Shown: positions 942 through 24,633 of the stretch, piece by piece
Position numbering within the stretch: position 1 is the stretch's first letter
Layout: each line of letters opens with the position of its first letter
From: Desulfotalea psychrophila LSv54
Lineage (GTDB): Bacteria > Desulfobacterota > Desulfobulbia > Desulfobulbales > Desulfocapsaceae
Assembly: GCF_000025945.1 (NCBI RefSeq)
Contig: NC_006138.1
Span: forward strand, 2,070,001-2,102,000
Reading direction: 5' to 3'
DNA length: 32,000 nt
Program-made: the position numbers and the translations under genes
Notes under the pieces: generated by a model
What the model saw: the letters and a program-made list of their open reading frames with translations, nothing else
Database searches by the model: none
Told to the model about the DNA's origin: nothing

Positions 942-981
942 CTAGCATCTAGCATCTAGCATCTAGCATCTAGCATCTAGC
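942..981. repeat. heptanucleotide tandem repeat (CTAGCAT) x5.7
   Basis: Direct reading: ctagcat repeated at 942, 949, 956, 963, 970, then ctagc at 977. The last unit supplies the TAG stop (977-979, minus strand) of the ACP gene. Confidence 0.95.
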
Positions 982-1243
982 CGATTTCCTGCGAAATAAA
1001 GTCGGCCAAACTAGCAATGGATTCGAGGACCCTACGGCTGGTGTCTTCGCCGCCGATGCGGATATCGTACTGCTTCTGGACCAGGAAGACTATCTCGACG
1101 GCGTCGAGGGAGTCGAGGCCGAGGGGTGAGTCCGGGCCGATGAGTTGGGCATCACTGGGGAAATCGTCGGGGGCATCCATCACCTTGCAGGCATCAATAA
1201 TTAGTAGCTTCAGATTCCTTTCTAACTCTGCTCTCTTCTCCAT
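977..1243 (-). CDS. acyl carrier protein (terminal, third ACP of the cluster)
   Basis: 88 aa. Phosphopantetheine attachment motif LGLDSLDAVEIV. AAGGA Shine-Dalgarno 5 nt before ATG 1243. Confidence 0.9.
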   Translation of the reverse strand: MEKRAELERNLKLLIIDACKVMDAPDDFPSDAQLIGPDSPLGLDSLDAVEIVFLVQKQYDIRIGGEDTSRRVLESIASLADFISQEIG

Positions 1244-1260
1244 ATCTTTCCTTAAAAACG

Positions 1261-1278
1261 GCCCCTCTCAGAGGTGGC
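1261..1278 (-). terminator. GC-rich hairpin plus U5 run lying in the leader just upstream of the ACP RBS (attenuator-like)
   Basis: Minus strand reads GCCACCUCUGAGAGGGGC (7 bp, one bulge) followed by CGUUUUU, then AAGGAAAGAU-AUG. Confidence 0.35.
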
Positions 1279-1317: not shown

Positions 1318-1509
1318 TGAAAACCATTGTCTAAAGGGTGTCTTTGAAAAATGAGACTTTTCGATAAATATCAGCTAAGCCCCGACTGCGAGGCATTTGG
1401 AAAATATTACCACAGGCATCGTTGATATCGGAGTCTACGCTTACCTCCGAGGATAAAATTTTTCATACAACGCAGAGATTTGAAGAAGAGACCATTTTTC
1501 GAGGCTCCC
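1314..1509 (-). repeat. dispersed intergenic repeat, copy A (full length, minus orientation)
   Basis: The reverse complement of 1448-1509 matches 31795-31856 at about 51 of 62 positions by hand alignment. The middle block (1390-1417) and 3' block (1331-1368) also match copy C. Confidence 0.85.
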
Positions 1510-2813
1510 TAGAGGGTACCCTTGCCATATCTCCAAGAAAAAACCAAGCGGGAAAGGACAAGGCAGACCAGAAAAAAGCCCAGCAAAAGACCAATATTGC
1601 TCAGGATCGAGTGGATATCACCGCCCCGGACAAAGAGTTCGACAAAGCCCTCTAATCCCCAGGCCAGGGGGGAAAAGCCACTCAGTGTTTTCATAAATGC
1701 AGGCATAACATAGGTGGGAACCATGATTCCACCTATGGCGGCGGCAATGACCACTGAGACGGCACCGAGCATGGAGGCCTGATCGTAGCTACGGGCAAAG
1801 GCACCGAGGAGGAGACCATAGCCGGTGGCCGCCAGGGCCGCACAGAGGGCGAGGAGGAAGACCGCCCCCGGATGATCTCCGAGAAGGAGGGCGGGGGTGC
1901 CAAAGAGGGGCAGAATCCATTTACCCACCGCCAACATCAGAGAGAACTGGATGAGGCAGACCAGCACATAGGCCGCCGTCTTTCCTGCGACGATGACCTC
2001 GTAGGCCACCGGATGGGCAAAGAGACGGAGGAGGGTTCCCTCCTGCCGTTCCCGTAGGAGGGCGGCTGAAAGCGGTACCACAATAAAGAACATACCAAAG
2101 AGGGACCAGGCAGGGACGTTTTGCTGGATGGCATCTGGCGTTTTTATCTCCGGGCCGGTTGTGGCCAGCTCTTTAATGCTGAGAAGTGACTGATTGGCAA
2201 AGAGATTGCTCTCCTCTTCGGTGGGTCTGCCTCTGCTGAATCGTTGTTGCAGGCTGCGCGACAGGCGCTGGCCCTTCATCTCCATCTCCAGCCCCAGAAG
2301 CGCATAGCGAAGTGAGCTCAGGACCGTTGAGCGAAAGGCGCCTTGAACGGTGGGGTCAAAGAAGAGCTCCACCTGACTGTCGACCGTGGCTAACTGCTGC
2401 TTGGTCCCCGGACTGAGAACTTGGGCGCTGAAACGAGCCAACCCCTCTGCCATCGTCTCGCTGCTACCGGCGGGGATGAGGATACCAAACTGGTAGTTAC
2501 CGGCTGCCACCTCTTCTCTTGCCTGCTCTGCCCTGATTGCCTTATCCGCTATGGTTTCTATCAGGGTAATTCCACCCGAGTCGTTGAGACGGTTGCGTAG
2601 CTGCTTGCCCACCTCGGCGCCGTCCTCATCGACAAAGAGGACCTGCAGGGCGGACTGGCCCGTGGCCTGGAGGACATTATTTTGCACCAGGGAGACAATG
2701 AGGACCAGGGCCATGGGCATGACAAAGAGGATGAGCATTCCCGCCCGGTCCCGCCACAGGACCAGAATGTCTTTTATGAAGGTTGCCATAAATTGCTGCA
2801 TAATTCTCATCAT
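1509..2813 (-). CDS. ABC-2 type transporter permease
   Basis: 434 aa. One N-terminal TM, a long extracytoplasmic segment, then 5 C-terminal TMs (YhhJ/YbhS-like architecture). GGGGGAG RBS 6 nt before the ATG. Directly follows the ATPase gene. Confidence 0.85.
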   Translation of the reverse strand: MMRIMQQFMATFIKDILVLWRDRAGMLILFVMPMALVLIVSLVQNNVLQATGQSALQVLFVDEDGAEVGKQLRNRLNDSGGITLIETIADKAIRAEQAREEVAAGNYQFGILIPAGSSETMAEGLARFSAQVLSPGTKQQLATVDSQVELFFDPTVQGAFRSTVLSSLRYALLGLEMEMKGQRLSRSLQQRFSRGRPTEEESNLFANQSLLSIKELATTGPEIKTPDAIQQNVPAWSLFGMFFIVVPLSAALLRERQEGTLLRLFAHPVAYEVIVAGKTAAYVLVCLIQFSLMLAVGKWILPLFGTPALLLGDHPGAVFLLALCAALAATGYGLLLGAFARSYDQASMLGAVSVVIAAAIGGIMVPTYVMPAFMKTLSGFSPLAWGLEGFVELFVRGGDIHSILSNIGLLLGFFLVCLVLSRLVFSWRYGKGTL

Positions 2814-2825: not shown

Positions 2826-3584
2826 CTAATCACGGAGCTGTCGCCCGGTGAGCTGTAGAAACAGCTCTTCAAGATTTTTACAGCCTGTCCTGGCGGCCAC
2901 TAGCGTGGACGGTGCCCCCTCGGCCAAGACATGGCCAGCGTCAATGATGACAATGCGGGAGCAGAGTTGCTGGGCCTCCTCCATATAGTGGGTGGTATAG
3001 AGCATGCTCATCCCCTCCTCATTGAGGCGCTGTAAATTTTCTAAAATCATATTGCGCGACTGGGCATCGATACCAACGGTGGGTTCATCGAGGAAGAGCA
3101 GTTGCGGTTGGTGGACAATACCCACGGCCAGGTTCGCCCGTCGTTTCATCCCCCCGGAGTAGGTAGCAATGGGCCGATCAGCGCTTTCACCCAGACCGAC
3201 CAGTTGCAGGCACTCCTCACATCGTGCCCGTAACCTCTTGCCTGTAAGACCATGCAGTCTGCCGAAGTAGTGGATGTTTTCCCGTGCGGTCAGACTGGGG
3301 TAGAGGGCGATATCCTGGGGAACCAGGCCTATTTTTCTTCGGGCCTGCATGGGTCGGGTCAGCATATCCTCACCGTCAAGGAGGAGGCTGCCCGATGAGG
3401 GACGGAGAAGGGTGGTCATTACCGAGATAGCCGTGGTCTTGCCAGCCCCGTTGGGGCCGAGGAGACCAAATATCTCTCCCCTGCCAATCTCAAGGGAGAG
3501 ACCATTCAGGGCCGGAGCGGAGGCCGTGGGATACTGGACTACCAGTTCCCGGGCCAGAAGGAGGGGCGGAGTTTTAGAAACCAT
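2826..3584 (-). CDS. ABC transporter ATP-binding protein
   Basis: Walker A GPNGAGKTT, signature YSGGMKRR, Walker B LLFLDEPT. I prefer the ATG at 3584 (TAATG overlap with the upstream stop) over the GTG at 3596 given by the ORF track. Confidence 0.92.
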   Translation of the reverse strand: MVSKTPPLLLARELVVQYPTASAPALNGLSLEIGRGEIFGLLGPNGAGKTTAISVMTTLLRPSSGSLLLDGEDMLTRPMQARRKIGLVPQDIALYPSLTARENIHYFGRLHGLTGKRLRARCEECLQLVGLGESADRPIATYSGGMKRRANLAVGIVHQPQLLFLDEPTVGIDAQSRNMILENLQRLNEEGMSMLYTTHYMEEAQQLCSRIVIIDAGHVLAEGAPSTLVAARTGCKNLEELFLQLTGRQLRD

Positions 3585-4585
3585 TAGGCGATACACTCCA
3601 GAACTTGACGAAAGAGCCGATCTTCACGATCGGCGCAGACATGCAGTTGTGCGGCCAGGGCCGGATAGGTGGAACTTGCCCCCTCTCGGCCCTTGCAGTT
3701 GCGGGCACTGAGCAGGGCAAAATAACGCCATAGATCTCCAATCTCGGTCATCTCAGCCGACAGTTCTGCCAACTGTGGCCGCTTGAGGATATCCGCCGCT
3801 TCCTGAAGGAAGGCGGCATAGATAAAGCGGAAACCGCCGCCACCGGTGCCGATCTCCTCCTGCATGCGGATAAGATGGCCAAGATGTTGTCGTGCCCCTT
3901 CGGTACCCAGTTTTTCCGGCCATCTTTCCAGTCGATTTGCCAGGAGGTGAATTCCCCGCGTACCCATAAAGGGGAGGGGGGTGCCTACCATCCGTTTTGC
4001 CACCTCTTTGATGCCCAAGAGGACAGCTGCGGGTAGGTCAACCTCTTCTGGCTTTCTCTGCAGATAGGACATACGTCCACGGGGAGCAAGGGCCCCCTTG
4101 GCAAAACGGGCCCTCTGCAGATCGTTACGATGACAGCGTACCGGTTTATCAAAGACAGGGTCGCTGATCAGATACTCTTCCCCGTCGCGACCATAGACCA
4201 CCAGATTATGGGCGTTAAAGTGAAAACGAAAGGCCGGCGGGAAATAGGGGAGCCAGTAGACCCCTGTCTGCAGTACCACCGGATGGCCCTGCTCCAGGGC
4301 CGCGTCCAGGGCTTGCATACCTGCCTCTTCTCGACGAAAACGCTGGACACGGACGGGTACCCCGAGGCGTCCCGCCGTCTTTTTGAAAATTGCTCCGGGC
4401 GAGGTGCGAAAGGTGATGAGGGGTAGTTTATTTATCCGGACAAAGGGAAAGTAGCCAAAGAAGAGGCCGCCGCCAATACCGAAGGCCAGGGCCTCGGACA
4501 TCTCATAGCCTGAATGGGAGAGGACATTGGCGGTGACCCCGCTTTCGCAGTGGGCCGACTGCCGATGGCTAAATTCTATATTCAC
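3584..4585 (-). CDS. BtrH_N/DUF4872-like protein (papain-fold, ACP-dependent acyl/aminoacyl transferase family)
   Basis: 333 aa. N-terminal HCESGVTANVL with candidate nucleophile Cys, downstream FNAHNLVVYGRD His, glycine-rich GIGGGLFFGY. Pattern recalled from the butirosin BtrH family. GTGA overlap with the upstream gene. Confidence 0.65.
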   Translation of the reverse strand: MNIEFSHRQSAHCESGVTANVLSHSGYEMSEALAFGIGGGLFFGYFPFVRINKLPLITFRTSPGAIFKKTAGRLGVPVRVQRFRREEAGMQALDAALEQGHPVVLQTGVYWLPYFPPAFRFHFNAHNLVVYGRDGEEYLISDPVFDKPVRCHRNDLQRARFAKGALAPRGRMSYLQRKPEEVDLPAAVLLGIKEVAKRMVGTPLPFMGTRGIHLLANRLERWPEKLGTEGARQHLGHLIRMQEEIGTGGGGFRFIYAAFLQEAADILKRPQLAELSAEMTEIGDLWRYFALLSARNCKGREGASSTYPALAAQLHVCADREDRLFRQVLECIA

Positions 4586-5022
4586 TTAACTTCCTCTTGG
4601 CGGGTGCTCTGTTGGGACATCTCTGCCAGCTTAGGTACAAGGTCCAGTTGCTCTATGTTCATCTTAAAAATTGTGGCATAGCGGTTCAGTATTTTGGTGG
4701 ATAACTTCTTATAATGTTTTGCCTGAAGATGTCTTCTCACCCGCCAACGGGCCATCTTTACATAGGAGGCAAGGAGGGCGACATCCATCTGGTTCCTGGC
4801 CATATGATAGACAAGCGGACTGGCACCTTCGGACTCTATCCTGGAGAGGGCTACCATGACATCTGCGGCAATGACCTTCCATGCCTGATCGTTGGCCAGA
4901 TTTGCCGCATCCCAACCTGCACTGGGCACTAGAGCATAGCTGCCGTCTTCCTCCACAGCGTAGGAGACGGCATGCCACTCCTGCAGAATTCCGACATCCT
5001 GTGGAACATCATCTTTTTTCAA
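4582..5022 (-). CDS. hypothetical protein, possible helix-turn-helix segment
   Basis: 146 aa. TTG start preceded by GAGG 5 nt upstream. Segment PLVYHMARNQMDVALLASYVKMARWRVRRHL looks HTH-like. No family recognised. Confidence 0.55.
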   Translation of the reverse strand: MKKDDVPQDVGILQEWHAVSYAVEEDGSYALVPSAGWDAANLANDQAWKVIAADVMVALSRIESEGASPLVYHMARNQMDVALLASYVKMARWRVRRHLQAKHYKKLSTKILNRYATIFKMNIEQLDLVPKLAEMSQQSTRQEEVK

Positions 5023-5029
5023 AATAACC

Positions 5030-6130
5030 TCATTGCTTTTCAGGACGGTTAGATGCGTTCTTCAGGAGGAGGGCGGCATTGATTCCGCCAAAACCGGAGT
5101 TGCAGGTGATGATGGAGGGGTGCCCGAGGGCAAGGGCCTCACTGCCTGAAAGCTGGCAGTCTGTTTCTGCCGGGACTTCAAGGCCCACCGTGGGGGGAAG
5201 GATCATATCCCTGAGGCTGTAGAGCGAGAGCACCGTTTCAACTATTCCCGAAGCGGCAAGGCTATGGCCCAGAGCGCCCTTTACGGAACAGACCGGCATT
5301 CCCGGGGCAAAGACCTTACTAAAGGCCAGGAGTTCCATGGCATCGTTATAGACCGTTGCCGTACCATGGGCATTGATGCCGCCAATGTCTCCGGCCTCCG
5401 CCTTTATCTGTTCCAAGGCGGCTATCAGTCCTGTTGCATATCTGCTGGGCGCAGTTATATGATTGGCATCGCAGCTGATGGACCAGGGACCGAGGGTGGC
5501 AAGCACCGATGAGGGTTCGGCTACTTCTGCCGCCGAGAGGAGGATCCAACCGGCCCCATCGCCTAAGGAGAGGCCATCACGATCTTTGGCAAAGGGCCTT
5601 GCCGCCGTTGCCGATAGGGCCTTGAGGCTGGAAAAACCGGAAAGGACAAACTGGGAGAGGAGGTCAAAGCCGATAATGAGGGCATGGTCGCACTCTCCTG
5701 CCTTAATGCGCATGGCTCCCTGAATGACGGCAATTAGGCCGGAAACGCAGGCTGCACTGACCGTGGTGCCTGCCTTTATTCCAAGTCTTTGGGCTAACTC
5801 CTCTGCCACCTGCCAGGGTTGGCCCTCTTCACGACCACTGCGGAGCAGGAACTCGTCCGTTGCCGCCTTGGTGGTGGCGCAAAAGAGTTGGGTGGCCGGT
5901 GAGAGCTGCGGGAGGCTGGCCAGAAGCCGCTTAAACATATCATTCTGGCGCTGAAGACTGCCCGGTTCTCCTGCCAAATCAGGAATAAAACCTAGAGGCC
6001 ATTCACCTTCCAGGCTCCCAAATTTTTGCAGGGAAATTCCCGTTTTGCCGGCAAGAAGGGCCTGCCAGGTTGATTGCCCATCGCCCAGGGGGGTGAGAAT
6101 ATCTCCGCCAACAACTACAACATCTCTCAT
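5030..6130 (-). CDS. beta-ketoacyl-ACP synthase (complete Cys-His-His)
   Basis: 366 aa. SAACVSG (Cys), NAHGTATVYND (His), KGALGHSLAASG (His). ATGA overlap with the thioesterase gene. Confidence 0.9.
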   Translation of the reverse strand: MRDVVVVGGDILTPLGDGQSTWQALLAGKTGISLQKFGSLEGEWPLGFIPDLAGEPGSLQRQNDMFKRLLASLPQLSPATQLFCATTKAATDEFLLRSGREEGQPWQVAEELAQRLGIKAGTTVSAACVSGLIAVIQGAMRIKAGECDHALIIGFDLLSQFVLSGFSSLKALSATAARPFAKDRDGLSLGDGAGWILLSAAEVAEPSSVLATLGPWSISCDANHITAPSRYATGLIAALEQIKAEAGDIGGINAHGTATVYNDAMELLAFSKVFAPGMPVCSVKGALGHSLAASGIVETVLSLYSLRDMILPPTVGLEVPAETDCQLSGSEALALGHPSIITCNSGFGGINAALLLKNASNRPEKQ

Positions 6131-6600
6131 GATTTACTCCATTTTCCTGTCTGCCATTGATGACGAAACTCTTCAAGCCAGACTGGTGTGATAAAGAGGG
6201 CCATGCCAGCCAGATCAGTGAGGAGCTGTACCGTATAGCCGCTGGCTGCTATTTCTCCTGCCCCGTTTCGGATCAGATAGGAGATGTTGAGACGGGCAGA
6301 CTCCACCCAGTGCAGGGAGGTCTCAATGCTGATCTGCTCATTAAAGTGGAGGGGCCTCTTATAATCCAGATGCATCTGGACAATGGGGGCGGCAATATCA
6401 TGCTGGTGAAAGAGCTCATAGCTCAGACCGCACATATCTCCCAGGGCCATTCTTCCATCCTCTAAGTAACTGGAATATCGTCCATGCCAGACGATGCCCA
6501 GGGAGTCAACCTCTTCAAAACGGATCCGTGTCCGGGCAATGCCCGTAAGAGGTGCAGGTGCCGAATCATCCTCGGGAAAATATTTTTTTATAAAGCCCAT
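6127..6600 (-). CDS. 4HBT/YbgC-type acyl thioesterase (hotdog)
   Basis: RIRFEEVDSLGIVWHGRYSSYLEDGR motif. I place the start at ATG 6600 (MGFIKKYF...) because the 34-codon N-terminal extension in the ORF track runs through a copy of the intergenic repeat. Confidence 0.8.
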   Translation of the reverse strand: MGFIKKYFPEDDSAPAPLTGIARTRIRFEEVDSLGIVWHGRYSSYLEDGRMALGDMCGLSYELFHQHDIAAPIVQMHLDYKRPLHFNEQISIETSLHWVESARLNISYLIRNGAGEIAASGYTVQLLTDLAGMALFITPVWLEEFRHQWQTGKWSKS

Positions 6601-6642
6601 ATTATGCCTATGTCTTAAAATGATAGTACAGATCTTACTGAG

Positions 6643-6678
6643 TAAAGGGTGGCTTGAAAAATTAGACTTTTCTTCAAC
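6643..6678 (-). repeat. dispersed intergenic repeat, copy E (3' module only)
   Basis: The minus strand reads GAAAAGTCTAATTTTTCAAGCCACCCTTTA. This matches copy A at about 29 of 32 positions and matches copy C at 31912-31939. Confidence 0.8.
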
Positions 6679-7078
6679 TTTTGCTGAAATCGCAGCTACC
6701 ATTGCTGACAGACTTACCCTCTTTTTTTACGGTAAACTCGCCATGGTAGAGTTCCTCCTCCGGGGTGAGCCTTACCTCTATCTCTACCTCCTCCCCCGGC
6801 AGTATCGCCCCGGAAAATTTAATTCTTCCATATGCCCGTAGCTGTAGGGCAAAACCGAGGGCCTGCTCTGAGATATGCCGTACTGTGGTAAGCTGGACAA
6901 CGGCGGGCAGGACTGAGTGATCGGGGAAATGGCCGGCAAAGGCGGAAAACGTCTCTGGAAAAACAAAGCTGGCCCTGGCCTGAACAGCTCCCTCCTTCAA
7001 CTCTTTAAGTGCAGAGCTGAGGCAGCAATCTTTAAGAGAGGCATATATGGGAGTATAGGTTTTTTCACTGGGAGTCAT
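6674..7078 (-). CDS. hotdog-fold 3-hydroxyacyl-ACP dehydratase (ApeI/FabA-FabZ-like)
   Basis: FAGHFPDHSVLPAVVQL motif. AAGGA lies 6 nt before ATG 7078 (the ORF track TTG at 7084 is also possible). Overlaps the end of the lipoprotein gene. Confidence 0.75.
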   Translation of the reverse strand: MTPSEKTYTPIYASLKDCCLSSALKELKEGAVQARASFVFPETFSAFAGHFPDHSVLPAVVQLTTVRHISEQALGFALQLRAYGRIKFSGAILPGEEVEIEVRLTPEEELYHGEFTVKKEGKSVSNGSCDFSKS

Positions 7079-10597: not shown

Positions 10598-10665
10598 TTT
10601 TTCCACGTGGTGAGGCTGACGGAATCATCCTTCTTCAGGACTTGTTAACTTTACAAGATTCTGGG

Positions 10666-11167: not shown

Positions 11168-11183
11168 GGTTTCCTCACCAAAA

Positions 11184-14275: not shown

Positions 14276-14325
14276 CTCTCTTCCAAGGTCCAATAGCCCG
14301 GTGGGCTTCTAATATGAAAACTGCA

Positions 14326-14351
14326 CAATAGCAAATTGCCCCCTGCTATTG
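14326..14351 (-). other. intercistronic hairpin (8-bp stem, 10-nt loop) spanning the acyltransferase stop codon, upstream of the ACP gene
   Basis: CAATAGCA (14326-14333) pairs with TGCTATTG (14344-14351). Confidence 0.5.
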
Positions 14352-17784: not shown

Positions 17785-17867
17785 AATCAAACCCCTCTAA
17801 CGAATAAATAAACAGTGGGGTTTCCCCTCAATGATCTTGGCCCAAGGCCACTGGCAGAACTCTTTTT

Positions 17868-19507: not shown

Positions 19508-19513
19508 CGGAAA

Positions 19514-20818
19514 TTACCTATAATCAAAAAACTTTCTTGGTTTTCGTCCACCATCCGCCGTCATGGTGGCCTTAACCTGTTCGGGAGGAAGCACCGTCAG
19601 GGTAGGTTTTACCCGCAGCTGTGCCTGGAGCATCTCCTCAAATTTTTTGTCCAGCGCCTTATCATCACAGCCAACCACTACATGGACATCATCAATTCCA
19701 TCGGCACCTGTACGTACCTCAACGTATGCTCCAGAAACGGCCTCAACCTTCTGCAGAATATTGAAGATTGTTTCAGGATAAAGGGTTGTCCCCTTATATT
19801 TCAGTCGCTGAGCCAGACGTCCCTCCACGGGGCCCAGTCGTTTGGTGTTCCAGCCACAGGCACATGGGGAGTTTTCCAATCGACTGATATCACCAGTTTT
19901 AAGGCGGACCAGGGGGAATCCCTCGATGCCCAGAGGTGTTACCACCACCTCGCCAGAAACGCCATCGGCTACCACCCTGCCATGATCATCCACCACCTCG
20001 ACCAACATCAGCTCAGGGTGGACATGTCCGCCCCGGGCCATGGTGCATTCGCTAAAGGCAGTTTCAAACTCTGTTGCCCCGTAAGAAGAGTAGAGGTCTG
20101 CTTGCCAGAGATCATGTAGTTGAGCGCCAAGTGGGGTGAGACCGTGATCCGGTTGCCGCACAGATTCACCTATGGTGATAATGCTCTTAATCGAAGAGGT
20201 GGCAGGGTCTATTCCTTCCGCCAAGGCCCACTGGCCGAGATCGCGTAAAAATGTGGGTACCCCGACAATGATCTTGGGCTTTAGGGTGTTTATGGTGTGC
20301 CACTGACGAGCCGGTTGGCCGGGGCCGCTGCGAATTGCCGAGGCGCCCAGAAAGGTTATGCCGGAGTAGTAGGCAAGTCCTGCTACAAAACACCTGTCCA
20401 GAGTTACCGTTAGTAGTACCCTGTCCTCAGGTCGAACTCCCGCGCCATAAAAGGCCATTGCCTCGTTAAAGGCCAGTCGTTTCAGATCTGCTTCGGTATA
20501 GGGGACCACAACCGCATTACCCGTGGTTCCCGATGTCAGGGCAATATCACGAAAGGCCCTTTCATTACGCAAACCAAATGCGTCAGCATGACTGTCCAGC
20601 TGTTCTCTGGTCGTGAAGGGGAGTTGGGAGAGCTCTGCAACAGAGCTTAGAGCCTCTATCTCTTTTTTCCCTATGCCCAACGCCTTTTTGTAAAAGGGTA
20701 TGCTGAGGGCATGGAGCAGATGTCTCTTGAGCAGTACCAGTTGTACCTCTTCAATTTGCGCCAGAGGGGCCCTGCGAAGAGAAATAGCCTGCTCGATATT
20801 GTACTTATCTGCCAACAT
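19514..20818 (-). CDS. PaaK/coenzyme F390 synthetase-family adenylate-forming enzyme (starter-acid activation)
   Basis: 434 aa. TSGTTGNAVVVPYT motif and the size typical of phenylacetate-CoA ligase-like enzymes. Confidence 0.8.
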   Translation of the reverse strand: MLADKYNIEQAISLRRAPLAQIEEVQLVLLKRHLLHALSIPFYKKALGIGKKEIEALSSVAELSQLPFTTREQLDSHADAFGLRNERAFRDIALTSGTTGNAVVVPYTEADLKRLAFNEAMAFYGAGVRPEDRVLLTVTLDRCFVAGLAYYSGITFLGASAIRSGPGQPARQWHTINTLKPKIIVGVPTFLRDLGQWALAEGIDPATSSIKSIITIGESVRQPDHGLTPLGAQLHDLWQADLYSSYGATEFETAFSECTMARGGHVHPELMLVEVVDDHGRVVADGVSGEVVVTPLGIEGFPLVRLKTGDISRLENSPCACGWNTKRLGPVEGRLAQRLKYKGTTLYPETIFNILQKVEAVSGAYVEVRTGADGIDDVHVVVGCDDKALDKKFEEMLQAQLRVKPTLTVLPPEQVKATMTADGGRKPRKFFDYR

Positions 20819-20913: not shown

Positions 20914-21654
20914 TCAACTAAAATGGCCATATTCCCGGAGAGTGGTCTCTATTTGCTCTTGGACATAACGACGCATGCGCTGAACATCATCTCGACCACC
21001 ACTTTTCTCTGGATAGACAGGTTCAAGTACCACCAACTTTACCCTGCCGCACGACAGTAGTCGTTTTCCCGGGGCGAGGATATCTGCTGATCCCAGGATA
21101 CATACGGGAATGATGGGTCTGTTGGTCTCCTGAGCCAGGGTAAATGCCCCCGTTTTAAACCGGGCCAACTGTCGATTGCGGGAACGATGTCCCTCGGGCC
21201 AGATAGTTACATAGCATCCATCATCAAGCATCTTCTGGCTTTTACTTAAAATCTCAGCCCAACCCTTTTCGGCATTTGCATAGCCGGCAATTTTCATAAA
21301 AAAGCTATACAGGGGGATTTTGAAGGGCCAGGAGGTGACAAAACCACTCTCTACAGGGATAGCTCCAAAAAGATAGGGATCTATGGCCGAATTGTGGTTC
21401 GCAACAAAAATTGAGGCCGGTGGTAAGCTCTTTGTCCGGTAAATAACCTCAACGGGTGCCCAGAAGGGTATTTTGCAGACCAAGATCCAACCGTAAAGAC
21501 AGATTCCCCGGCGCAGAGCAGAGCCGATGCTTACAGAATTAACTGTTACGCAGAGCAGGATAGTAAGGGGGGATATGATGACTGCAATGGCTGTGACCAC
21601 GGTGAAGGCCATAAAAAAATAGCAGTTCCACAATATTTTTTGCAAAAGGATCAT
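20914..21654 (-). CDS. 1-acyl-sn-glycerol-3-phosphate acyltransferase family (PlsC-like) membrane protein
   Basis: N-terminal TMs. HX4D motif (VANHNSAIDP) and WPEGHRS motif. ATGA overlap with the ACP gene. Confidence 0.85.
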   Translation of the reverse strand: MILLQKILWNCYFFMAFTVVTAIAVIISPLTILLCVTVNSVSIGSALRRGICLYGWILVCKIPFWAPVEVIYRTKSLPPASIFVANHNSAIDPYLFGAIPVESGFVTSWPFKIPLYSFFMKIAGYANAEKGWAEILSKSQKMLDDGCYVTIWPEGHRSRNRQLARFKTGAFTLAQETNRPIIPVCILGSADILAPGKRLLSCGRVKLVVLEPVYPEKSGGRDDVQRMRRYVQEQIETTLREYGHFS

Positions 21655-21911
21655 GCAGCTGTCTGGCCCGCCTTTTTCTTAACAATAAATTCTGCCAAAT
21701 CCTTCAGGGTCCAGATGGAGCGGATCTCTTTTTCATCAGCAAGTTTCAGGCCAAATGTTTTTTCTAAAACGATAACCATATCAACGGCATCAAGACTATC
21801 AAGCCCAAGCTCCTCATAGAGGGATGCCTCCGGAGTCATCTCTTCCCGGTTGAGTTCAAACTCTTCTGCAAGTACATCAACGACTGTTTGAAAAACTTCT
21901 TTATCTGTCAT
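21651..21911 (-). CDS. acyl carrier protein
   Basis: 86 aa, LGLDSLDAVDMV. ATGA overlap with the KS gene. Confidence 0.9.
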   Translation of the reverse strand: MTDKEVFQTVVDVLAEEFELNREEMTPEASLYEELGLDSLDAVDMVIVLEKTFGLKLADEKEIRSIWTLKDLAEFIVKKKAGQTAA

Positions 21912-23155
21912 GGGTATATGTCATTTCTTATTGCCAGCGAGGTATTTACACCTCCAAGGGCAAAATTGTTTTTTAATATAGTTTTCAAAAAAGCGGAACT
22001 CTTCTCTCTGATTAGCGAAATACCATTGCAACGGGGATCAGCCAGGGATAAATTTCGGGTAGGGATGATCTCCTGACGCTGCATCATTTCCAGTACAGCT
22101 ATTATCTCCAGGGCTCCGGAGGCACCGAGGGTATGGCCTAAATGTCCCTTAAAAGAACTTACCGGGATCAGGGGGCCAAGGACGCTGGCGATGGCTCTAG
22201 CCTCGGCAATATCACCAAGCTCAGTTCCCGTTGCATGGGCGTTGACATAATCAATATCTGCGGCAATGATCCCTGCCTCCGACATTGCTCTGCTCATGGC
22301 CCTTTGCATGGAGTGGGTATCGGGGTTAGCAATATGGCCACTATCGGTGACATTACCAAAGCCTACTATCTCTCCATATATTTTCGCCCCCCGTGCCTGG
22401 GCTGAGGCCAACTCTTCTAACACTAAAACACCACTTCCTCCACCACAAACTACCCCATCCCGGTCTTTGGCAAAGGGGCGACAGGAAGATTCCGGCTCCT
22501 GATGCCGACGAGAGGCTGCGCCTAATAGATCAAAAACACCGGTCACCGATGGATGCGTCTCTTCGGCTCCGCCACAGAGCATTGCCTGCTGTCTTCCCGC
22601 TTTAATGAGGATATAACCCAAGCCTATGGCCTGAGAGGAGGAGGTGCAGGCACTCGCAGGGCCCCACTGTTCTCCCTTTATCCCCAGGGTAAGGCTGACG
22701 TTTGCCGCGCAGGAGTGACCCATGGACTTAAAAAATTCCCCTGACTTGATTCCCTGCAGTGAGCTGTTGACCAGATACTGTAAGTAAAAAGTTTCATAGG
22801 CCGCAGGGCTACCGGTGGTTGAGCCGATGGCAACACCTATATCACCCGAGGAGAGGCACTCTTTGTCTATGCCACTGTCGGCCACCGCTTCTTGGGAGGC
22901 GATGGTGGCAAACATGGCCATTTTTCCCATGGTACGACGTTGTATGCGGGGTAATATTTTCAGATCAAAATCTGGTACCGGAGCAGCCAGATGACTTCCA
23001 AGGCCTGCTACGTCCTGCCATTCCGGAATAGAGCGAATGGCGGAACATCCCTGCCAGAGATTTTCCAGTAGAGTAGGTACACCCAAACCAAAGGGAGAGA
23101 CTGCGCCTCTGCCAGTTATAACGACCCGTTTATTCACAGTTGCACACTTCTCCAA
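21908..23155 (-). CDS. beta-ketoacyl-ACP synthase, FabF/FabB-like (complete Cys-His-His)
   Basis: ASACTSSSQAIG, NAHATGTELGD, KGHLGHTLGASG. The start could instead be GTG 23137 (GTGA overlap with the upstream stop, N-terminus NKRVVITGRG). Confidence 0.9.
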   Translation of the reverse strand: MEKCATVNKRVVITGRGAVSPFGLGVPTLLENLWQGCSAIRSIPEWQDVAGLGSHLAAPVPDFDLKILPRIQRRTMGKMAMFATIASQEAVADSGIDKECLSSGDIGVAIGSTTGSPAAYETFYLQYLVNSSLQGIKSGEFFKSMGHSCAANVSLTLGIKGEQWGPASACTSSSQAIGLGYILIKAGRQQAMLCGGAEETHPSVTGVFDLLGAASRRHQEPESSCRPFAKDRDGVVCGGGSGVLVLEELASAQARGAKIYGEIVGFGNVTDSGHIANPDTHSMQRAMSRAMSEAGIIAADIDYVNAHATGTELGDIAEARAIASVLGPLIPVSSFKGHLGHTLGASGALEIIAVLEMMQRQEIIPTRNLSLADPRCNGISLIREKSSAFLKTILKNNFALGGVNTSLAIRNDIYP

Positions 23156-24633
23156 AGATCTTCTAAACCAAGTATTTCTCCAGCACTTACCAGTCCTGCA
23201 ACAGAGGCTCCAACAACTCCTGTCATAAGTGTGGATTGCCCACTTAGGTAAAACCCTGGTAAACGCGTACGTACATCGGGGTTAAACTGTCCTAAGCAGT
23301 GCATTGCGCCATAGGTACAGCCGGAGGGCGCAGAGAGTTCATCGCGAAAGGTAAGGGGGCTTGCAGTGGCAAGGGGATTCAGGGTTCCACATATATCCCC
23401 CCATTTTTCTTCTGCTCTATGAATCATTTTTTCGGCAATGGCTCTTTTCCACTCTGTATATTCAGGCCCCCTAGGTGGAGAATTCTTGCCTGCAAATTGC
23501 TCGATATCCTGCCAATAACCAGTACTCAGTAATATAACGTCATTGCCTTGACCATGCAATCCTTTCTGTGGAACTGCTGGGGCACCGCTTGTCATAAGCA
23601 TCGTGCGCTGATGGGGGGCAAGTTGGCTCTGTTGAGGGAGGATGGCCCCTTCTTTCGGGAAAAGATAGTAGTTTAGTATGCCGTCGGCACAGTCTACCCT
23701 CTTTTCTGATTCTGCAAAAACGGCAAACATTGAAAGAGAGGGACGCAGGTTTTTTACCCTGGTTTTATAGGCTGGTCGGAAGCCCTGTGGGGGGAGGAGG
23801 TCAAGCGATTGGCTCGGGTGACCTGTATAAATTACCTGCTGACAGGTGATCTCTTCTCCCGAGGCAAGTTGAACCCCTGCGGTCATTCCATTGTTCACCA
23901 GAACTGAGGTGACCTCAGCATTGAGGGTGAGAGTTGCCCCATATTTGTCCAGGGCGTTTGCAAAGGAATCGACAACACTCTGTCCTCCTCCTGCTACCTT
24001 GTATGCACCCGAGTAATAACCATGGGCGACCAGGGAATGGACCTCAAGTGAGGCATCAGCTGTTGGCACCCCATAGAGAAATCCGGGTGCCTCAAGTACA
24101 GCTCGCAGGAGTCTGTCGTCGGTGATGCTCTTTAGAAAACTGGAAAGAGACTGGGCATTTTCCTTATATCCTCGCAGGAAGGGAAGGAGGGGGAGATGAG
24201 GCTTATAAAAGGGCACATCCTGGCAATTTTCTTGCACCGTTTTCAGGTATTTTCTGATGCCCTGTAGTTCTCTTGGAAACTCTCTCTCCAGTTCTTCGGC
24301 AAGTTTTTCATAGGAAAAATAACCCCGAATAACGCGTCCGCTTGCCCCGTCCTCAAAATGATCATAGCCTGCTGGATCAGAGGGGATAATGTCTAAGCTC
24401 TGCAAGACACCGCAGTGTTTCCAGAGGAAATTTAATACCTCTCCTTCTCCCAGGCATCCTGTGTAGTGGAATCCCACGTCAAAGGCGTGTCTCTTTCTGG
24501 TGAACTGCCGGATAGATCCGCCCGGATATCTGCTCTTTTCCAGAATTACTACCTTCTTGCCATGTTTTGCCAGCAGGGCACCGGCGGTTAGGCCACTTAT
24601 GCCACTCCCTATAATAACAACGTCTGCCCTCAC
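23134..24633 (-). CDS. FAD-dependent oxidoreductase of the phytoene desaturase (CrtI/CrtD) family
   Basis: 499 aa. VVIIGSGISGLTAGALLAKHGKKVVILEKSRYPGG dinucleotide fold and C-terminal GFYLSGQSTLMTGVVGA. GTG start 4 nt after GGGAGG. Confidence 0.85.
   Translation of the reverse strand: MRADVVIIGSGISGLTAGALLAKHGKKVVILEKSRYPGGSIRQFTRKRHAFDVGFHYTGCLGEGEVLNFLWKHCGVLQSLDIIPSDPAGYDHFEDGASGRVIRGYFSYEKLAEELEREFPRELQGIRKYLKTVQENCQDVPFYKPHLPLLPFLRGYKENAQSLSSFLKSITDDRLLRAVLEAPGFLYGVPTADASLEVHSLVAHGYYSGAYKVAGGGQSVVDSFANALDKYGATLTLNAEVTSVLVNNGMTAGVQLASGEEITCQQVIYTGHPSQSLDLLPPQGFRPAYKTRVKNLRPSLSMFAVFAESEKRVDCADGILNYYLFPKEGAILPQQSQLAPHQRTMLMTSGAPAVPQKGLHGQGNDVILLSTGYWQDIEQFAGKNSPPRGPEYTEWKRAIAEKMIHRAEEKWGDICGTLNPLATASPLTFRDELSAPSGCTYGAMHCLGQFNPDVRTRLPGFYLSGQSTLMTGVVGASVAGLVSAGEILGLEDLWRSVQL

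What the first reader, a model, noticed from the sequence alone, without database searches (positions are those of the whole stretch)
977..24633. 24-kb single-strand aryl-polyene-like lipid cluster with radical-SAM, CrtI-like and BtrH-like additions; product not predictable from known families
26 consecutive minus-strand genes have almost no spacing. The core matches the gene set of APE/flexirubin-type type II clusters (Ape nomenclature from E. coli/Xenorhabdus work). That core is an adenylating enzyme, ACPs, KS plus Cys-less partner KS, FabG-type KR, two hotdog DHs, a 4HBT thioesterase, PlsC- and LpxL-type acyltransferases, GT2, LolA-like protein, MMPL and a DUF3261 lipoprotein. Several genes are not part of that canon as I know it: a B12-binding rSAM, a SPASM rSAM, a CrtI-family flavoenzyme, a BtrH-like transferase, an ABC-2 exporter pair and a third ACP. 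The usual aryl-head-group accessories (TAL/UbiC-type starter supply, methyltransferase, halogenase) are absent. The same mixture (FAS-II-like genes + radical SAM + phytoene-desaturase-like) was proposed from comparative genomics, without biochemical proof, for ladderane lipid synthesis in anammox bacteria. As I recall, related clusters were noted in a psychrophilic sulfate reducer. I am not aware of any assigned product for the deltaproteobacterial version.
Basis: partly seen in the sequence, partly recalled or inferred. Interest (0 to 1): 0.85.

Follow-up and report, generated by a model that had tools for sequence, protein, structure and literature searches.

The report
Orphan aryl-polyene-type lipid cluster, Desulfotalea
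This is a real 24-kb operon-like gene cluster of the sulfate reducer Desulfotalea psychrophila, first described in 2009 as "ladderane-like", that most likely makes a pigment-type polyene lipid for the outer membrane; its product has never been identified.

Summary
There are 26 consecutive minus-strand genes (977-24633), and 15 of 25 junctions overlap. The predicted domains match, except that DUF3261 is only sub-threshold.

The window is Desulfotalea psychrophila itself. By my numbering the locus is DP1835-DP1860, the cluster Rattray et al. (2009) compared with Kuenenia, so the finding is a rediscovery. No product has been assigned in the literature I could search, up to 2026.

New points:
- **"Extras" that are known.** The BtrH-like gene, the 146-aa protein, the ABC-2 pair, the third ACP and the third KS form the known "dar accessory" module of flexirubin/arcuflavin clusters (NCBIfam DarH and DarG above cutoff). 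DarA/DarB are absent.
- **Ligase.** It matches the characterised 4-coumarate ligase FlxY over its full length.
- **Distribution.** The B12-rSAM family (TIGR04072) occurs in at least 584 species, usually embedded in the Ape-like core.
- **Tyrosine-type starter in relatives.** A TAL/PAL-type lyase lies beside the ligase or is translationally coupled to the B12-rSAM in relatives. None is in this window.
- **Reduced variant.** D. psychrophila lacks a further rSAM present in 63 of 80 relatives.

Best reading: an anaerobe-type aryl-polyene/flexirubin-family lipid cluster. The roles of the rSAM and CrtI-like enzymes are unresolved.

The parts
23134..24633 (-). g26 (DP1860 by my numbering): CrtI/CrtISO-family FAD flavoprotein, the 'phytoene-dehydrogenase-like' gene
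   Evidence: Pfam Amino_oxidase 71 bits and NAD_binding_8. NCBIfam carotenoid isomerase 108 bits and crtI_fam 92 bits, both far below cutoff. Present in 20 of 40 well-covered related loci.
21908..23155 (-). g25: active KS (Cys-His-His), stand-alone ApeR-type position
   Evidence: Pfam ketoacyl-synt N and C domains. NCBIfam PRK09116 408 bits against a cutoff of 470. Motifs ACTSS/HATGT/GHTLG read from the translation.
21651..21911 (-). g24: ACP
   Evidence: PP-binding E 1.2e-11. NCBIfam PRK05350 72 bits, above the cutoff of 65. DSL motif present.
20914..21654 (-). g23: PlsC-type (LPLAT) acyltransferase
   Evidence: Pfam Acyltransferase 69.5 bits.
19514..20818 (-). g22 (DP1856 by my numbering): PaaK-type adenylating ligase, FlxY-like (4-coumarate-CoA ligase relative)
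   Evidence: NCBIfam FlxY_rubin E 1.5e-125, 419 bits (cutoff 520), full length; PaaK models score only 125-151 bits. FlxY biochemistry is described in PMC3992019.
18398..19462 (-). g21 (DP1855): radical SAM/SPASM enzyme
   Evidence: Pfam Radical_SAM and SPASM. Nearest NCBIfam models are AhbD, NirJ2 and MftC, all below cutoff. Nearest solved structures are SkfB and PqqE. In collinear relatives this slot holds either this gene (24 loci) or a TAL (3 loci).
17868..18401 (-). g20: short Cys-less KS-N/CLF-like protein, probable partner of KS g6
   Evidence: Pfam ketoacyl-synt 21.9 bits. The family profile matches the N-terminal half of FabF, E 1.2e-4. hhalign against the g14 family gives 97.6% probability. 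Adjacent to the g6 homologue in Desulfuromonadales loci.
16417..17790 (-). g19 (DP1853): B12-binding radical SAM enzyme, family TIGR04072 'lipid biosynthesis B12-binding/radical SAM protein'
   Evidence: NCBIfam TIGR04072 615 bits, above the cutoff of 360; the next model is BzaD at 175 bits. 100% identical to the NCBI D. psychrophila protein. At least 584 species-level loci carry a relative. Nearest solved structures are AprD4 and TsrM.
15236..16420 (-). g18: GT2 glycosyltransferase fused to DUF2062 (ApeJ-type position)
   Evidence: Pfam hits. Next to the B12-rSAM in 68 of 80 loci.
14346..15239 (-). g17: LpxL/HtrB-type acyltransferase
   Evidence: Pfam Lip_A_acyltrans 47 bits. Found in 62 of 80 loci.
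14021..14293 (-). g16: ACP
   Evidence: PP-binding. NCBIfam PRK09184 74 bits, above the cutoff of 70.
12753..13961 (-). g15: active KS (ApeO-type), partner of g14
   Evidence: Pfam KS N and C domains. Solved structures: 9s5h_B E 1.6e-59 and ApeO 6qsp_A E 5e-50.
11977..12756 (-). g14: Cys-less chain-length-factor-like KS partner (ApeC-type)
   Evidence: Pfam Ketoacyl-synt_2. The family profile's best solved-structure hit is ApeC 6qsp_B, E 2.7e-9.
11184..11918 (-). g13: FabG-type ketoreductase
   Evidence: NCBIfam FabG NF004200 288.6 bits, above the cutoff of 273; FlxB 275 bits, below its cutoff of 340.
10718..11203 (-). g12: hotdog dehydratase, ApeP/FabZ-like
   Evidence: Pfam ApeP-like 23.4 bits, below the cutoff of 27. 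Weak solved-structure hits to FabZ, ApeP and amxFabZ.
9962..10606 (-). g11: LolA-like periplasmic carrier
   Evidence: Pfam LolA 122 bits. NCBIfam LolA2_flexi 117.6 bits against a cutoff of 125.
7594..9996 (-). g10: MMPL/RND-type membrane exporter
   Evidence: Pfam MMPL. Weak NCBIfam HpnN/HAE3 hits.
7065..7601 (-). g9: lipoprotein, remote DUF3261-like
   Evidence: Lipobox-like N-terminus LLGLSGC. DUF3261 E 0.11 only; the positional analogue in L068 passes the cutoff.
6674..7084 (-). g8: hotdog dehydratase, ApeI-like (HFP motif present)
   Evidence: Pfam FabA and ApeI-like, both sub-threshold. Best solved-structure hit is ApeI 6qsr_A, E 2e-4.
6127..6702 (-). g7: 4HBT-fold thioesterase (ApeK-type position)
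   Evidence: Pfam 4HBT_2 and 4HBT.
5030..6130 (-). g6: third active KS (DarJ-type position)
   Evidence: Pfam KS N and C domains. Motifs ACVSG/HGTAT/GHSLA. A KS is listed in the Azoarcus dar locus.
4582..5022 (-). g5: DarG-family protein, biochemical function unknown
   Evidence: NCBIfam NF053536 141 bits, above the cutoff of 70. No Pfam hit.
3584..4585 (-). g4: DarH, BtrH-related (ACP-dependent) acyltransferase
   Evidence: NCBIfam NF053550 485 bits, above the cutoff of 300. Pfam BtrH_N and DUF4872.
2826..3596 (-). g3: ABC transporter ATPase (DrrA-like)
   Evidence: Pfam ABC_tran. NCBIfam drrA 267 bits.
1509..2813 (-). g2: ABC-2 permease
   Evidence: Pfam ABC2_membrane_3 116 bits.
977..1243 (-). 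g1: third ACP, after a 265-bp gap
   Evidence: PP-binding 22 bits and a DSL motif. Homologues at 47-58% identity sit directly upstream of TAL and the B12-rSAM in the compact cluster type.

Best explanation
The locus (DP1835-DP1860 by my numbering) is an anaerobe-type member of the aryl-polyene/flexirubin superfamily of type-II-PKS-like lipid-pigment clusters.

Inferred pathway:
1. The FlxY-like ligase g22 activates an aromatic (hydroxycinnamate- or benzoate-type) acid and hands it to an ACP.
2. The stand-alone KS g25 and the KS:CLF pair g15:g14 extend it with malonyl units. A second pair, g6:g20, probably also takes part.
3. KR g13 and the dehydratase pair g12/g8 process each round. No enoyl reductase is present, so a conjugated polyenoyl-ACP results.
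4. The B12-rSAM g19, the SPASM rSAM g21 and the CrtI-like flavoprotein g26 tailor the starter or the chain. For g19 the best guess is C-methylation of the aryl ring or chain, substituting for a class-I methyltransferase.
5. The thioesterase g7 and the acyltransferases (PlsC-type g23, LpxL-type g17, BtrH-type DarH g4) together with GT2 g18 attach the acyl chain to a glyco- or phospholipid anchor.
6. LolA-like g11, MMPL g10, lipoprotein g9 and the ABC-2 pair g3/g2 move the product to the outer membrane.

Shown here: gene content, family assignments, synteny and co-occurrence. Inferred: every chemical step, the aryl nature of the starter in this particular organism, and the roles of the rSAM and CrtI-like enzymes.
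For: - Domain set, and no ER in the cluster.
- Ape-type KS:CLF and DH partners. The g14 family profile has ApeC as its best solved-structure hit (E 2.7e-9); g8 has ApeI as best hit; g15 matches ApeO at E 5e-50.
- g22 matches the model of the characterised 4-coumarate ligase FlxY over its full length (E 1.5e-125; biochemistry in PMC3992019).
- g4 is DarH and g5 is DarG-family, both above NCBIfam cutoffs. The gene order hypothetical-BtrH-ABC ATPase-permease-ACP matches the Azoarcus dar locus.
- The B12-rSAM is embedded in the Ape-like block in 30 of 40 well-covered loci. 29 of 40 carry a FlxY-like ligase and/or a TAL within reach.
- A TAL/PAL-type lyase (NQDVVSMG motif, Pfam Lyase_aromatic 550 bits) follows the ligase in L043, L051 and L061. 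In Desulfopila inferna it replaces g22-g20 in an otherwise collinear cluster. In the compact cluster type it overlaps the B12-rSAM start by 4 bp.
- In Desulfuromonadales the dar-like tail is interleaved with the rSAM block, so the parts belong together.
- Recurrent envelope genes in relatives (PagL-like, CsgG-like) fit an outer-membrane product.
- No recurrent class-I methyltransferase was found. The nearest named relative of g19 is BzaD, which I recall from memory to be an aromatic C-methylase.
Against: - No TAL, UbiC/XanB2, methyltransferase or halogenase is in the window. No close TAL orthologue from D. psychrophila is among the 120 best hits. The aryl starter is therefore unproven for this organism.
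- The ApeI-like, ApeP-like, FlxY, FlxB and LolA2 matches are all below their curated cutoffs.
- DarA/DarB are absent, so the usual acceptor of a DarH-type transfer is missing.
- No pigment or polyene lipid was reported for D. psychrophila; the 2009 lipid analysis found only ordinary fatty acids plus C31:8/C31:9 hydrocarbons.
- The nearest solved relatives of g19 include a non-methylating enzyme, AprD4, so methylation is only a guess.
- D. psychrophila lacks the partner rSAM present in 63 of 80 relatives, so its pathway may be incomplete or differ from theirs.
Confidence: 0.6

Rival explanations
1. The 2009 proposal of Rattray et al.: the cluster is a novel anaerobic, FAS-II-based route to polyunsaturated fatty acids. 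The CrtI-like flavoprotein and the rSAM enzymes would act as desaturases, and the products would feed the C31:8/C31:9 polyunsaturated hydrocarbons of D. psychrophila.
For: D. psychrophila makes C31:8 and C31:9 hydrocarbons, about 5% of lipids, and the authors found no polyketide-type PUFA pathway in its genome. The 2011 survey of pfa-like clusters does not list Desulfotalea, whereas it links Geobacter bemidjiensis C31:9 to a pfa-like cluster. The source of the polyunsaturated precursors in this organism is therefore still unexplained.
Against: The cluster's signature genes point to an aryl-primed, membrane-anchored and exported polyene, not a free hydrocarbon precursor. These are the FlxY-like aryl-acid ligase, TAL in relatives, DarG/DarH, the ApeC/ApeI-type partners, GT2, the PlsC- and LpxL-type acyltransferases, LolA and MMPL. 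KS/KR/DH cycles without an isomerising step would give conjugated trans double bonds rather than the methylene-interrupted cis pattern (this pattern is my recollection of the C31:9 structure). I could not check whether ole or pfa genes lie elsewhere in the genome.
Confidence: 0.12
2. The cluster makes a ladderane-like or otherwise rSAM-cyclised lipid, using the same chemistry as anammox bacteria.
For: Synteny with Kuenenia kuste3335-3352, including homologues of both rSAM enzymes (Kuste3343/DP1855 and Kuste3342/DP1853) and the flavoprotein. NCBIfam names the family rSAM_ladder_B12. B12-rSAM enzymes can catalyse non-methylating C-C chemistry, and g19 also matches the NCBIfam BchE model weakly (70 bits).
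Against: No ladderanes were detected in D. psychrophila. The cluster regarded as exclusive to ladderane producers is a different, small one (amxACP, amxFabZ, two FabF, PDH, B12-rSAM). The TIGR04072 family is in at least 584 mostly non-anammox species. As of 2026 there is no experimental link between any of these genes and ladderanes.
Confidence: 0.05
3. Same assembly-line logic, but the starter is not aromatic. The product would be a non-aryl polyene or modified acyl glycolipid of the outer membrane. In this lineage the SPASM rSAM (which sits where relatives have TAL) supplies or alters a different starter.
For: No TAL or chorismate-derived starter gene is in the window, and no close TAL orthologue was detected. 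The FlxY match is below the equivalog cutoff. The slot is occupied by SPASM in 24 loci and TAL in 3, never both, among ligase-bearing loci. The closest relative, D. vacuolatus, has neither.
Against: The ligase is far closer to FlxY (419 bits) than to any other model. The SPASM/TAL exclusivity may rest on only one or two evolutionary events, and L033 has both a g21-like gene and TAL.
Confidence: 0.18
4. The 26 genes are two or more juxtaposed but functionally separate units: an Ape-like/rSAM unit (g26-g7) and a dar-like export/acyl-transfer unit (g6-g1).
For: There is a 265-bp gap before g1 and a 111-bp gap between g12 and g11. The dar-like genes form a separate locus in Azoarcus. DarH was found within 10 kb of the rSAM in only 4 of 40 loci.
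Against: The low DarH count is limited by the flank length, since the window's own DarH lies 12 kb from g19. In Desulfuromonadales the tail genes are interleaved with the rSAM block: g7-g6-g20-xRSAM-g19-...-g14-PagL-g5-g4-g3-g2. g20 is adjacent to g6 there. g1-type ACPs sit next to TAL and the B12-rSAM in the compact type. Promoter and terminator scans found nothing above chance.
Confidence: 0.1

Closest known systems
Aryl polyene (APE) clusters of E. coli and Xenorhabdus (ApeA-R; solved structures ApeO:ApeC 6QSP and ApeI:ApeP 6QSR)
   Same: Adenylating ligase, two ACPs, KS plus Cys-less CLF, a second KS, FabG-type KR, two hotdog DHs, 4HBT thioesterase, PlsC- and LpxL-type acyltransferases, GT2, LolA-like, MMPL and a small lipoprotein; no ER. 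ApeC and ApeI are the best solved-structure hits for g14 (family profile) and g8.
   Different: Sequence similarity is remote, and the Pfam ApeI-like and ApeP-like scores fall below threshold. There is no class-I methyltransferase. Extra genes are the B12-rSAM, SPASM rSAM, CrtI-like flavoprotein, a second CLF-like protein, a third KS and ACP, DarG/DarH and an ABC-2 pair. The host is a strict anaerobe.
Flexirubin (Chitinophaga and Flavobacterium flx/dar) and arcuflavin (Azoarcus arc/dar) clusters
   Same: FlxY-like ligase. DarH and DarG-family proteins pass the NCBIfam cutoffs. The gene order hypothetical-BtrH-like-ABC ATPase-permease-ACP plus a KS matches the Azoarcus dar locus. FlxB-like KR and LolA2-like carrier score just under cutoff. 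Relatives carry a FlxA-like TAL.
   Different: There is no DarA/DarB, so no dialkylresorcinol by the known route. The window has no TAL. rSAM enzymes are not mentioned in the two flexirubin/arcuflavin cluster papers I read, and the Azoarcus gene table lists no CrtI-like enzyme.
Kuenenia stuttgartiensis kuste3335-3352 ('ladderane locus 1' of Rattray et al. 2009)
   Same: Published synteny with this very locus: both rSAM enzymes, the 'phytoene dehydrogenase', the 'phenylacetyl-CoA ligase', the GT and the MMPL-like membrane protein.
   Different: Kuenenia has additional SAM methyltransferases, a polysaccharide deacetylase and a VacJ-like gene. Neither locus has an assigned product. D. psychrophila has no ladderanes.
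Anammox-specific small cluster (amxACP, amxFabZ kuste3604, two FabF, PDH-like, B12-rSAM)
   Same: It combines FAS-II-like genes with a PDH-like flavoprotein and a B12-rSAM. amxFabZ and a recent KS structure (9s5h, origin not checked) appear among the solved-structure hits of g12, g8 and g15.
   Different: That cluster is reported as exclusive to ladderane producers. The window's cluster type is widespread in Desulfobacterota and beyond.
Pfa (polyketide-type PUFA) synthase with OleABCD, the known route to C31:9 hydrocarbons
   Same: D. psychrophila contains C31:8 and C31:9 hydrocarbons.
   Different: The window has no multidomain PfaA-type protein (TIGR02813 scores only 31-53 bits against a cutoff of 1010) and no Ole genes.

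Membership tests
APE (aryl polyene) gene-cluster family | KS plus Cys-less CLF heterodimer of ApeO:ApeC type | tested here: met
   g15 has Cys-His-His and matches ApeO at E 5e-50. The g14 family profile has ApeC 6qsp_B as its best solved-structure hit, E 2.7e-9.
APE (aryl polyene) gene-cluster family | Two hotdog dehydratases of ApeI and ApeP type | tested here: inconclusive
   The best solved-structure hit of g8 is ApeI (E 2e-4). g12 matches FabZ, ApeP and amxFabZ about equally weakly. Pfam ApeI-like (21.2 bits, cutoff 28.5) and ApeP-like (23.4 bits, cutoff 27) are below cutoff.
APE (aryl polyene) gene-cluster family | KR present and no enoyl reductase in the cluster, giving a conjugated polyene | tested here: met
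   g13 passes the NCBIfam FabG cutoff. None of the 26 proteins is an ER. The CrtI-like g26 could in principle act as a reductase; this was not tested.
APE (aryl polyene) gene-cluster family | Anchoring and export set: PlsC- and LpxL-type acyltransferases, GT2, LolA-like, MMPL, DUF3261 lipoprotein | tested here: met
   All are found by Pfam. DUF3261 is only sub-threshold for g9 (E 0.11), but the positional analogue in L068 passes the cutoff.
APE (aryl polyene) gene-cluster family | Aryl head group: an aromatic starter is activated by the adenylating enzyme and an aryl-polyene product is detected | not testable with these tools
   Indirect evidence only: the FlxY-like ligase and TAL in relatives. 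There is no chemistry for D. psychrophila.
Flexirubin / DAR-hybrid cluster type | TAL (FlxA) plus 4-coumarate ligase (FlxY) initiation pair | tested here: inconclusive
   The ligase scores 419 bits against a cutoff of 520. The window has no TAL, and no close orthologue is among the top 120 hits. The pair is adjacent in L043, L051 and L061.
Flexirubin / DAR-hybrid cluster type | DarA/DarB dialkylresorcinol synthases | tested here: not met
   No KS-III-type or DarA-type protein is among the window ORFs. None was seen next to DarG/DarH in the related loci inspected.
Flexirubin / DAR-hybrid cluster type | Dar accessory genes: DarG, DarH (BtrH-like), ABC ATPase and permease, ACP, KS | tested here: met
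   NCBIfam DarH 485 bits (cutoff 300) and DarG_fam 141 bits (cutoff 70). The gene set and order match the Azoarcus dar locus.
TIGR04072 'lipid biosynthesis B12-binding/radical SAM protein' | Score above the curated equivalog cutoff, plus a lipid-cluster context | tested here: met
   615 bits against a cutoff of 360. The gene sits inside the KS/ACP/LpxL/GT2 block in 30 of 40 well-covered loci.
Ladderane biosynthetic cluster (anammox) | Occurs in ladderane producers, and ladderane lipids are present | tested here: not met
   By literature: no ladderanes in D. psychrophila, and the anammox-exclusive cluster is a different one. The family is widespread outside anammox bacteria.
Pfa-type PUFA synthase | Multidomain PfaA/PfaC proteins with tandem ACPs and FabA-type DH/isomerase domains | tested here: not met
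   All proteins are discrete. TIGR02813 gives only weak partial hits to the KS domains.

The most novel reading that the evidence does not exclude
The TIGR04072 B12-rSAM, with its partner rSAM enzymes and the CrtI-like flavoprotein, may perform a new radical modification of a growing or finished polyenoyl-ACP in strict anaerobes, such as C-C bond formation, cyclisation or an unusual alkylation. D. psychrophila DP1853/DP1855 are the homologues of Kuenenia Kuste3342/Kuste3343. If this reading is right, solving the product in this cultivable organism, or in Desulfopila inferna, would expose chemistry relevant to ladderane formation and define a new class of rSAM-tailored polyketide lipids. A sub-variant is that the SPASM rSAM is an oxygen- and TAL-independent route to the starter unit.
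Probability: 0.15. Interest if true: 0.85.

Novelty: already known. Interest (0 to 1): 0.42.

Why it matters
Clusters of this type are flagged as 'ladderane' in genome-mining surveys of anoxic habitats, where their function is described as unknown. Here the B12-rSAM family turns up in at least 584 species. A 2026 review names ladderanes and the Jaw5 product as the only fatty-acyl (non-isoprenoid) lipids proposed to be modified by radical SAM enzymes. If these clusters are the anaerobes' version of aryl-polyene or flexirubin pigments, that would correct a widespread annotation. It would also separate this locus from the real ladderane problem and point to cultivable organisms (D. psychrophila, Desulfopila inferna) in which the unknown rSAM chemistry can be tested. 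For this window specifically, the finding repeats a locus published in 2009.

Tried and rejected
- **Exact-sequence look-ups failed.** g19 and g21 as translated from the longest ORFs were not on record. Identity was obtained from the homology search instead.
- **Plasmid collection.** tblastn with DarH and the B12-rSAM gave only hits below 30% identity in unrelated contexts, so there was no annotated comparator.
- **Promoter and terminator scans.** Counts were about what shuffled sequence gives, so operon structure cannot be read from them.
- **Rfam and tRNA scans.** Nothing found.
- **Aromatic-acid import idea.** I tested whether the divergent MFS-MarR-MFS genes supply an aromatic acid. They look like DHA2/EmrB-type efflux pumps (sub-threshold) and the aromatic-acid symporter model scores poorly. 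Rejected.
- **Class-I methyltransferase, halogenase or ER as recurrent cluster genes.** Not found; one methyltransferase occurs in 3 loci on the opposite strand.
- **DarA/DarB beside DarG/DarH in relatives.** Not found.
- **Ole/Pfa explanation for the C31:9 hydrocarbon in D. psychrophila.** No held paper links Desulfotalea to ole or pfa genes, and the key 2010 paper is not held. Left open.
- **Single-sequence solved-structure search with g20.** Uninformative until a family profile was used.
- **Solved structures for g19 and g21.** Only generic relatives (AprD4, TsrM; SkfB, PqqE), which do not fix a reaction.
- **Structure prediction.** Not run, because it would not discriminate between rSAM reaction types.

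Full report
**1. Observation**

The window carries 26 consecutive minus-strand ORFs from 977 to 24633.
- 15 of the 25 junctions overlap, 9 have gaps of 7-111 bp, and one gap is 265 bp, before the terminal ACP.
- G+C is 0.49-0.58 across most of the cluster, against 0.31 at positions 1-1000 and 0.43-0.52 upstream.
- One call is weak: DUF3261 for g9 scores only E 0.11. Its positional analogue in a Pelovirga locus does pass the Pfam threshold.
- All three ACPs have the DSL serine motif. All three full-length KS have the Cys-His-His triad. Both rSAM proteins have CxxxCxxC (read).
- The cluster has no enoyl reductase, class-I methyltransferase, halogenase, TAL or chorismate-utilising enzyme. The flanks hold two MFS pumps, a MarR, a rubrerythrin-like protein, an Hsp20 and an AraC regulator.

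**2. Identity of the locus**

The B12-rSAM g19 is 100% identical to the NCBI protein 'lipid biosynthesis B12-binding/radical SAM protein [Desulfotalea psychrophila]' on a 3,523,383-bp contig.

Rattray et al. 2009 (PMC2649909) name DP1853 and DP1855 as the rSAM homologues of Kuste3342 and Kuste3343, and DP1860 as a phytoene-dehydrogenase-like gene. Consecutive numbering from g26 = DP1860 places the two rSAM genes exactly at g21 = DP1855 and g19 = DP1853. The cluster is therefore DP1835-DP1860 by inference, the locus whose synteny with Kuenenia kuste3335-3352 that paper reported.

Within the held library no other paper mentions these locus tags.

**3. State of knowledge**
- Rattray et al. found no ladderanes in D. 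psychrophila. They did find C31:8 and C31:9 hydrocarbons and proposed a novel anaerobic PUFA route.
- Papers from 2023 and 2026 still describe ladderane biosynthesis as unsolved.
- They regard a different, small cluster (amxACP, amxFabZ, two FabF, PDH-like, B12-rSAM) as the one exclusive to ladderane producers.
- Genome-mining papers report 'ladderane' clusters in Desulfobacterota and other non-anammox phyla, with unknown function.
- I found no paper that assigns a product.

**4. Which 'extras' are really extra**

- g4 falls in NF053550, 'BtrH-related acyltransferase DarH' (485 bits, cutoff 300).
- g5 falls in NF053536, 'DarG family dialkylresorcinol biosynthesis protein' (141 bits, cutoff 70).
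- The Azoarcus arcuflavin paper lists, next to DarA/DarB, a conserved hypothetical protein, a BtrH-like protein, an ABC ATPase, an ABC permease, an ACP and a KS. This is the set and order of g5-g4-g3-g2-g1, plus g6.

The BtrH-like gene, the ABC-2 pair and the third ACP therefore belong to a known accessory module of flexirubin/arcuflavin-type clusters. What is unusual is that DarA/DarB are missing, both here and next to DarG/DarH in the relatives I inspected.

The genuinely non-canonical genes are the B12-rSAM g19, the SPASM rSAM g21, the CrtI-like g26 and the small g20.

**5. Ape-likeness, tested**
- The g14 family profile has ApeC (6qsp_B) as its best solved-structure hit, E 2.7e-9.
- g8 has ApeI (6qsr_A) as its best hit.
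- g15 matches ApeO at E 5e-50, although ordinary FabF proteins score slightly better.
- g12 is not resolved between FabZ, ApeP and amxFabZ.
- g20 is a shortened, Cys-less paralogue of the g14-type CLF (hhalign 97.6% probability; profile match to the N-terminal half of FabF).
- In Desulfuromonadales g20 lies next to the g6 KS. The cluster probably encodes two KS:CLF pairs (g15:g14 and g6:g20) plus a stand-alone KS, g25.

**6. Comparative genomics**

584 loci were confirmed and the best 80 were kept. They come mostly from Desulfobulbales and Desulfuromonadales, with single loci from Terasakiella, a Holophagaceae MAG and a Bacillota-labelled MAG.

A tblastn matrix of all 26 proteins shows a conserved block: g20-(extra rSAM)-g19-GT2-LpxL-ACP-KS-CLF.

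Counts among the 40 loci with about 9 kb of flank upstream and at least 8 kb downstream:

| Feature near the B12-rSAM | Loci (of 40) |
|---|---|
| KS/ACP/LpxL/GT2 block | 30 |
| CrtI-like gene | 20 |
| SPASM rSAM | 19 |
| Extra rSAM | 31 |
| FlxY-like ligase and/or TAL | 29 |

The rSAM genes are thus integral to the Ape-like core and are not a separate unit. In Desulfuromonadales the dar-like tail is interleaved with the rSAM block, which argues that the whole 26-gene set functions together.

**7. D. psychrophila carries a reduced variant**

A roughly 430-aa protein lies between g20 and g19 in 63 of 80 loci. It has weak B12-binding and Radical_SAM matches and a CxxxCxxC motif, and is 58-84% identical among those loci. 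The window lacks it (only 77 bp separate g20 and g19), as does Desulforhopalus vacuolatus.

Several relatives also carry a third, HpnJ/PhpK-like B12-rSAM and a PagL-like outer-membrane protein. Neither is in the window.

**8. Link to a tyrosine-derived aryl starter**
- g22 matches the NCBIfam model of FlxY over its full length (E 1.5e-125; 419 bits, cutoff 520). PaaK models score only 125-151 bits.
- FlxY is a characterised 4-coumarate-CoA ligase that works with the TAL FlxA in flexirubin initiation (PMC3992019).
- A HAL/PAL/TAL-family lyase occurs in 15 of 80 loci (Pfam 550 bits).
- In three collinear Desulfobulbales loci the lyase directly follows the FlxY-like ligase, in the slot that 24 other loci fill with the SPASM rSAM.
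- In the isolate Desulfopila inferna the cluster reads KS-CrtI-like-KS-ACP-PlsC-TAL-PagL-B12-rSAM-GT2-LpxL-ACP-...-KR-ApeP-like DH.
- In a compact cluster type the TAL stop overlaps the B12-rSAM start by 4 bp.
- This TAL family is highly conserved in Desulfobacterota, but no D. psychrophila protein appears among the 120 best hits (all at least 74% identical).

The aryl starter is therefore well supported for the family and only inferred for this organism.

**9. Mechanism, as committed**

The product is an aryl- (or at least acid-) primed conjugated polyenoyl chain.
- It is built on ACPs by KS/CLF, KR and DH enzymes without enoyl reduction.
- It is tailored by the rSAM enzymes and the flavoprotein.
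- It is transferred to a glyco- or phospholipid anchor by the PlsC-, LpxL- and BtrH-type acyltransferases and GT2.
- It is exported by the LolA-like protein, MMPL, the lipoprotein and the ABC-2 pair.

For g19 I favour C-methylation, at roughly one chance in three. Its nearest named relative is BzaD (175 bits), which I recall to be an aromatic C-methylase. No class-I methyltransferase recurs in these clusters. The flexirubin paper used labelled methionine in feeding experiments and saw a +3 Da shift in the product. However, the nearest solved structures include both TsrM (a methylase) and AprD4 (a dehydratase), so this is a guess.

The nearest relatives of g21 are AhbD/NirJ-type enzymes and peptide-modifying SPASM enzymes. 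No reaction can be assigned to it.

**10. Rivals**
- **PUFA/hydrocarbon proposal of 2009.** It is not excluded. D. psychrophila makes C31:8/C31:9, and neither Rattray et al. nor the 2011 pfa survey reports a pfa-like cluster for it. The cluster's signature genes fit it poorly.
- **Ladderane-type product.** Contradicted by the lipid data and by the family's distribution.
- **Non-aryl starter.** This is the most serious rival for this particular organism.

**11. Verdict**

The locus itself is already in the literature as an orphan cluster, so novelty is 'already known'. What remains of interest is the unresolved radical-SAM chemistry on a polyketide-type lipid. This analysis also suggests that the widespread 'ladderane-like' clusters are anaerobe-type aryl-polyene/flexirubin relatives.

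Noticed in passing
window 17791-17867 (the 77-bp g20/g19 spacer); compare L010:8684-9991, L042:8694-9983, L068:8726-9991: In 63 of 80 related loci a conserved protein of about 430 aa sits between the g20 and g19 homologues. It has weak B12-binding and Radical_SAM matches plus a CxxxCxxC motif, and is 58-84% identical among loci, more conserved than g19 itself. It is absent from the window and from Desulforhopalus vacuolatus (L001).
   Followed up: partly
L043:5416-7098, L051 and L061 (TAL after the g22 homologue); L083:10001-11593; L081:10001-11596: A TAL/PAL-type ammonia-lyase occupies the slot that holds the SPASM rSAM g21 in 24 collinear loci. The two never co-occur among ligase-bearing loci. 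In the compact cluster type the lyase overlaps the B12-rSAM start by 4 bp. The SPASM enzyme might be an alternative route to, or modifier of, the starter unit, but the pattern may rest on very few evolutionary events.
   Followed up: partly
L068:17514-18077, L083:11893-12486, L053:597-1232: A PagL-like (lipid A 3-O-deacylase family) outer-membrane protein recurs inside about 15-21 related clusters, and a CsgG-like lipoprotein in about 8. Neither is in the window. Both hint at an outer-membrane or lipid-A-linked product.
   Followed up: no
L068:11474-12481, L073:11684-12907, L083:18644-20131 (minus strand): A third B12-binding rSAM, HpnJ/PhpK/BchE-like and only 22-25% identical to g19, accompanies the cluster in about 18 loci. 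It is absent from the window.
   Followed up: no
window 1-976: AT-rich stretch (G+C 0.31 against about 0.52 in the cluster) just downstream of the last cluster gene. It has two small plus-strand ORFs (200-508 and 546-761) with no Pfam match. With the slightly higher G+C of the cluster than of the upstream flank, this may mark the edge of a horizontally acquired island.
   Followed up: no
window 24895-28316 (plus strand): An MFS-MarR-MFS gene set is transcribed divergently from the cluster. The pumps resemble DHA2/EmrB-type efflux transporters (sub-threshold), not aromatic-acid importers. No link to the cluster was found.
   Followed up: yes
window 19483-19508 (minus strand, between g22 and g21): A 10-bp-stem hairpin with a weak T tail lies in the 51-bp spacer between the ligase and the SPASM rSAM. 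Terminator-like sites overall were not more frequent than in shuffled sequence.
   Followed up: no
L031 (JAIWHJ010000148.1, 5.4-kb contig), L072, L054, L074: One B12-rSAM locus, 51% identical with the same LpxL/GT2/ACP neighbours, sits in a MAG labelled Promethearchaeota. On a 5-kb contig at very low coverage this is probably a binning artefact. Other hits come from a Bacillota-labelled MAG, Terasakiella (Alphaproteobacteria) and a Holophagaceae MAG, which suggests cross-phylum spread.
   Followed up: no
window 28779-29315 (minus) and 30076-30546 (plus): A rubrerythrin/ferritin-like protein and an Hsp20 small heat-shock protein lie upstream of an AraC-family regulator (30731-31642). These are ordinary stress genes with no apparent relation to the cluster.
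   Followed up: no
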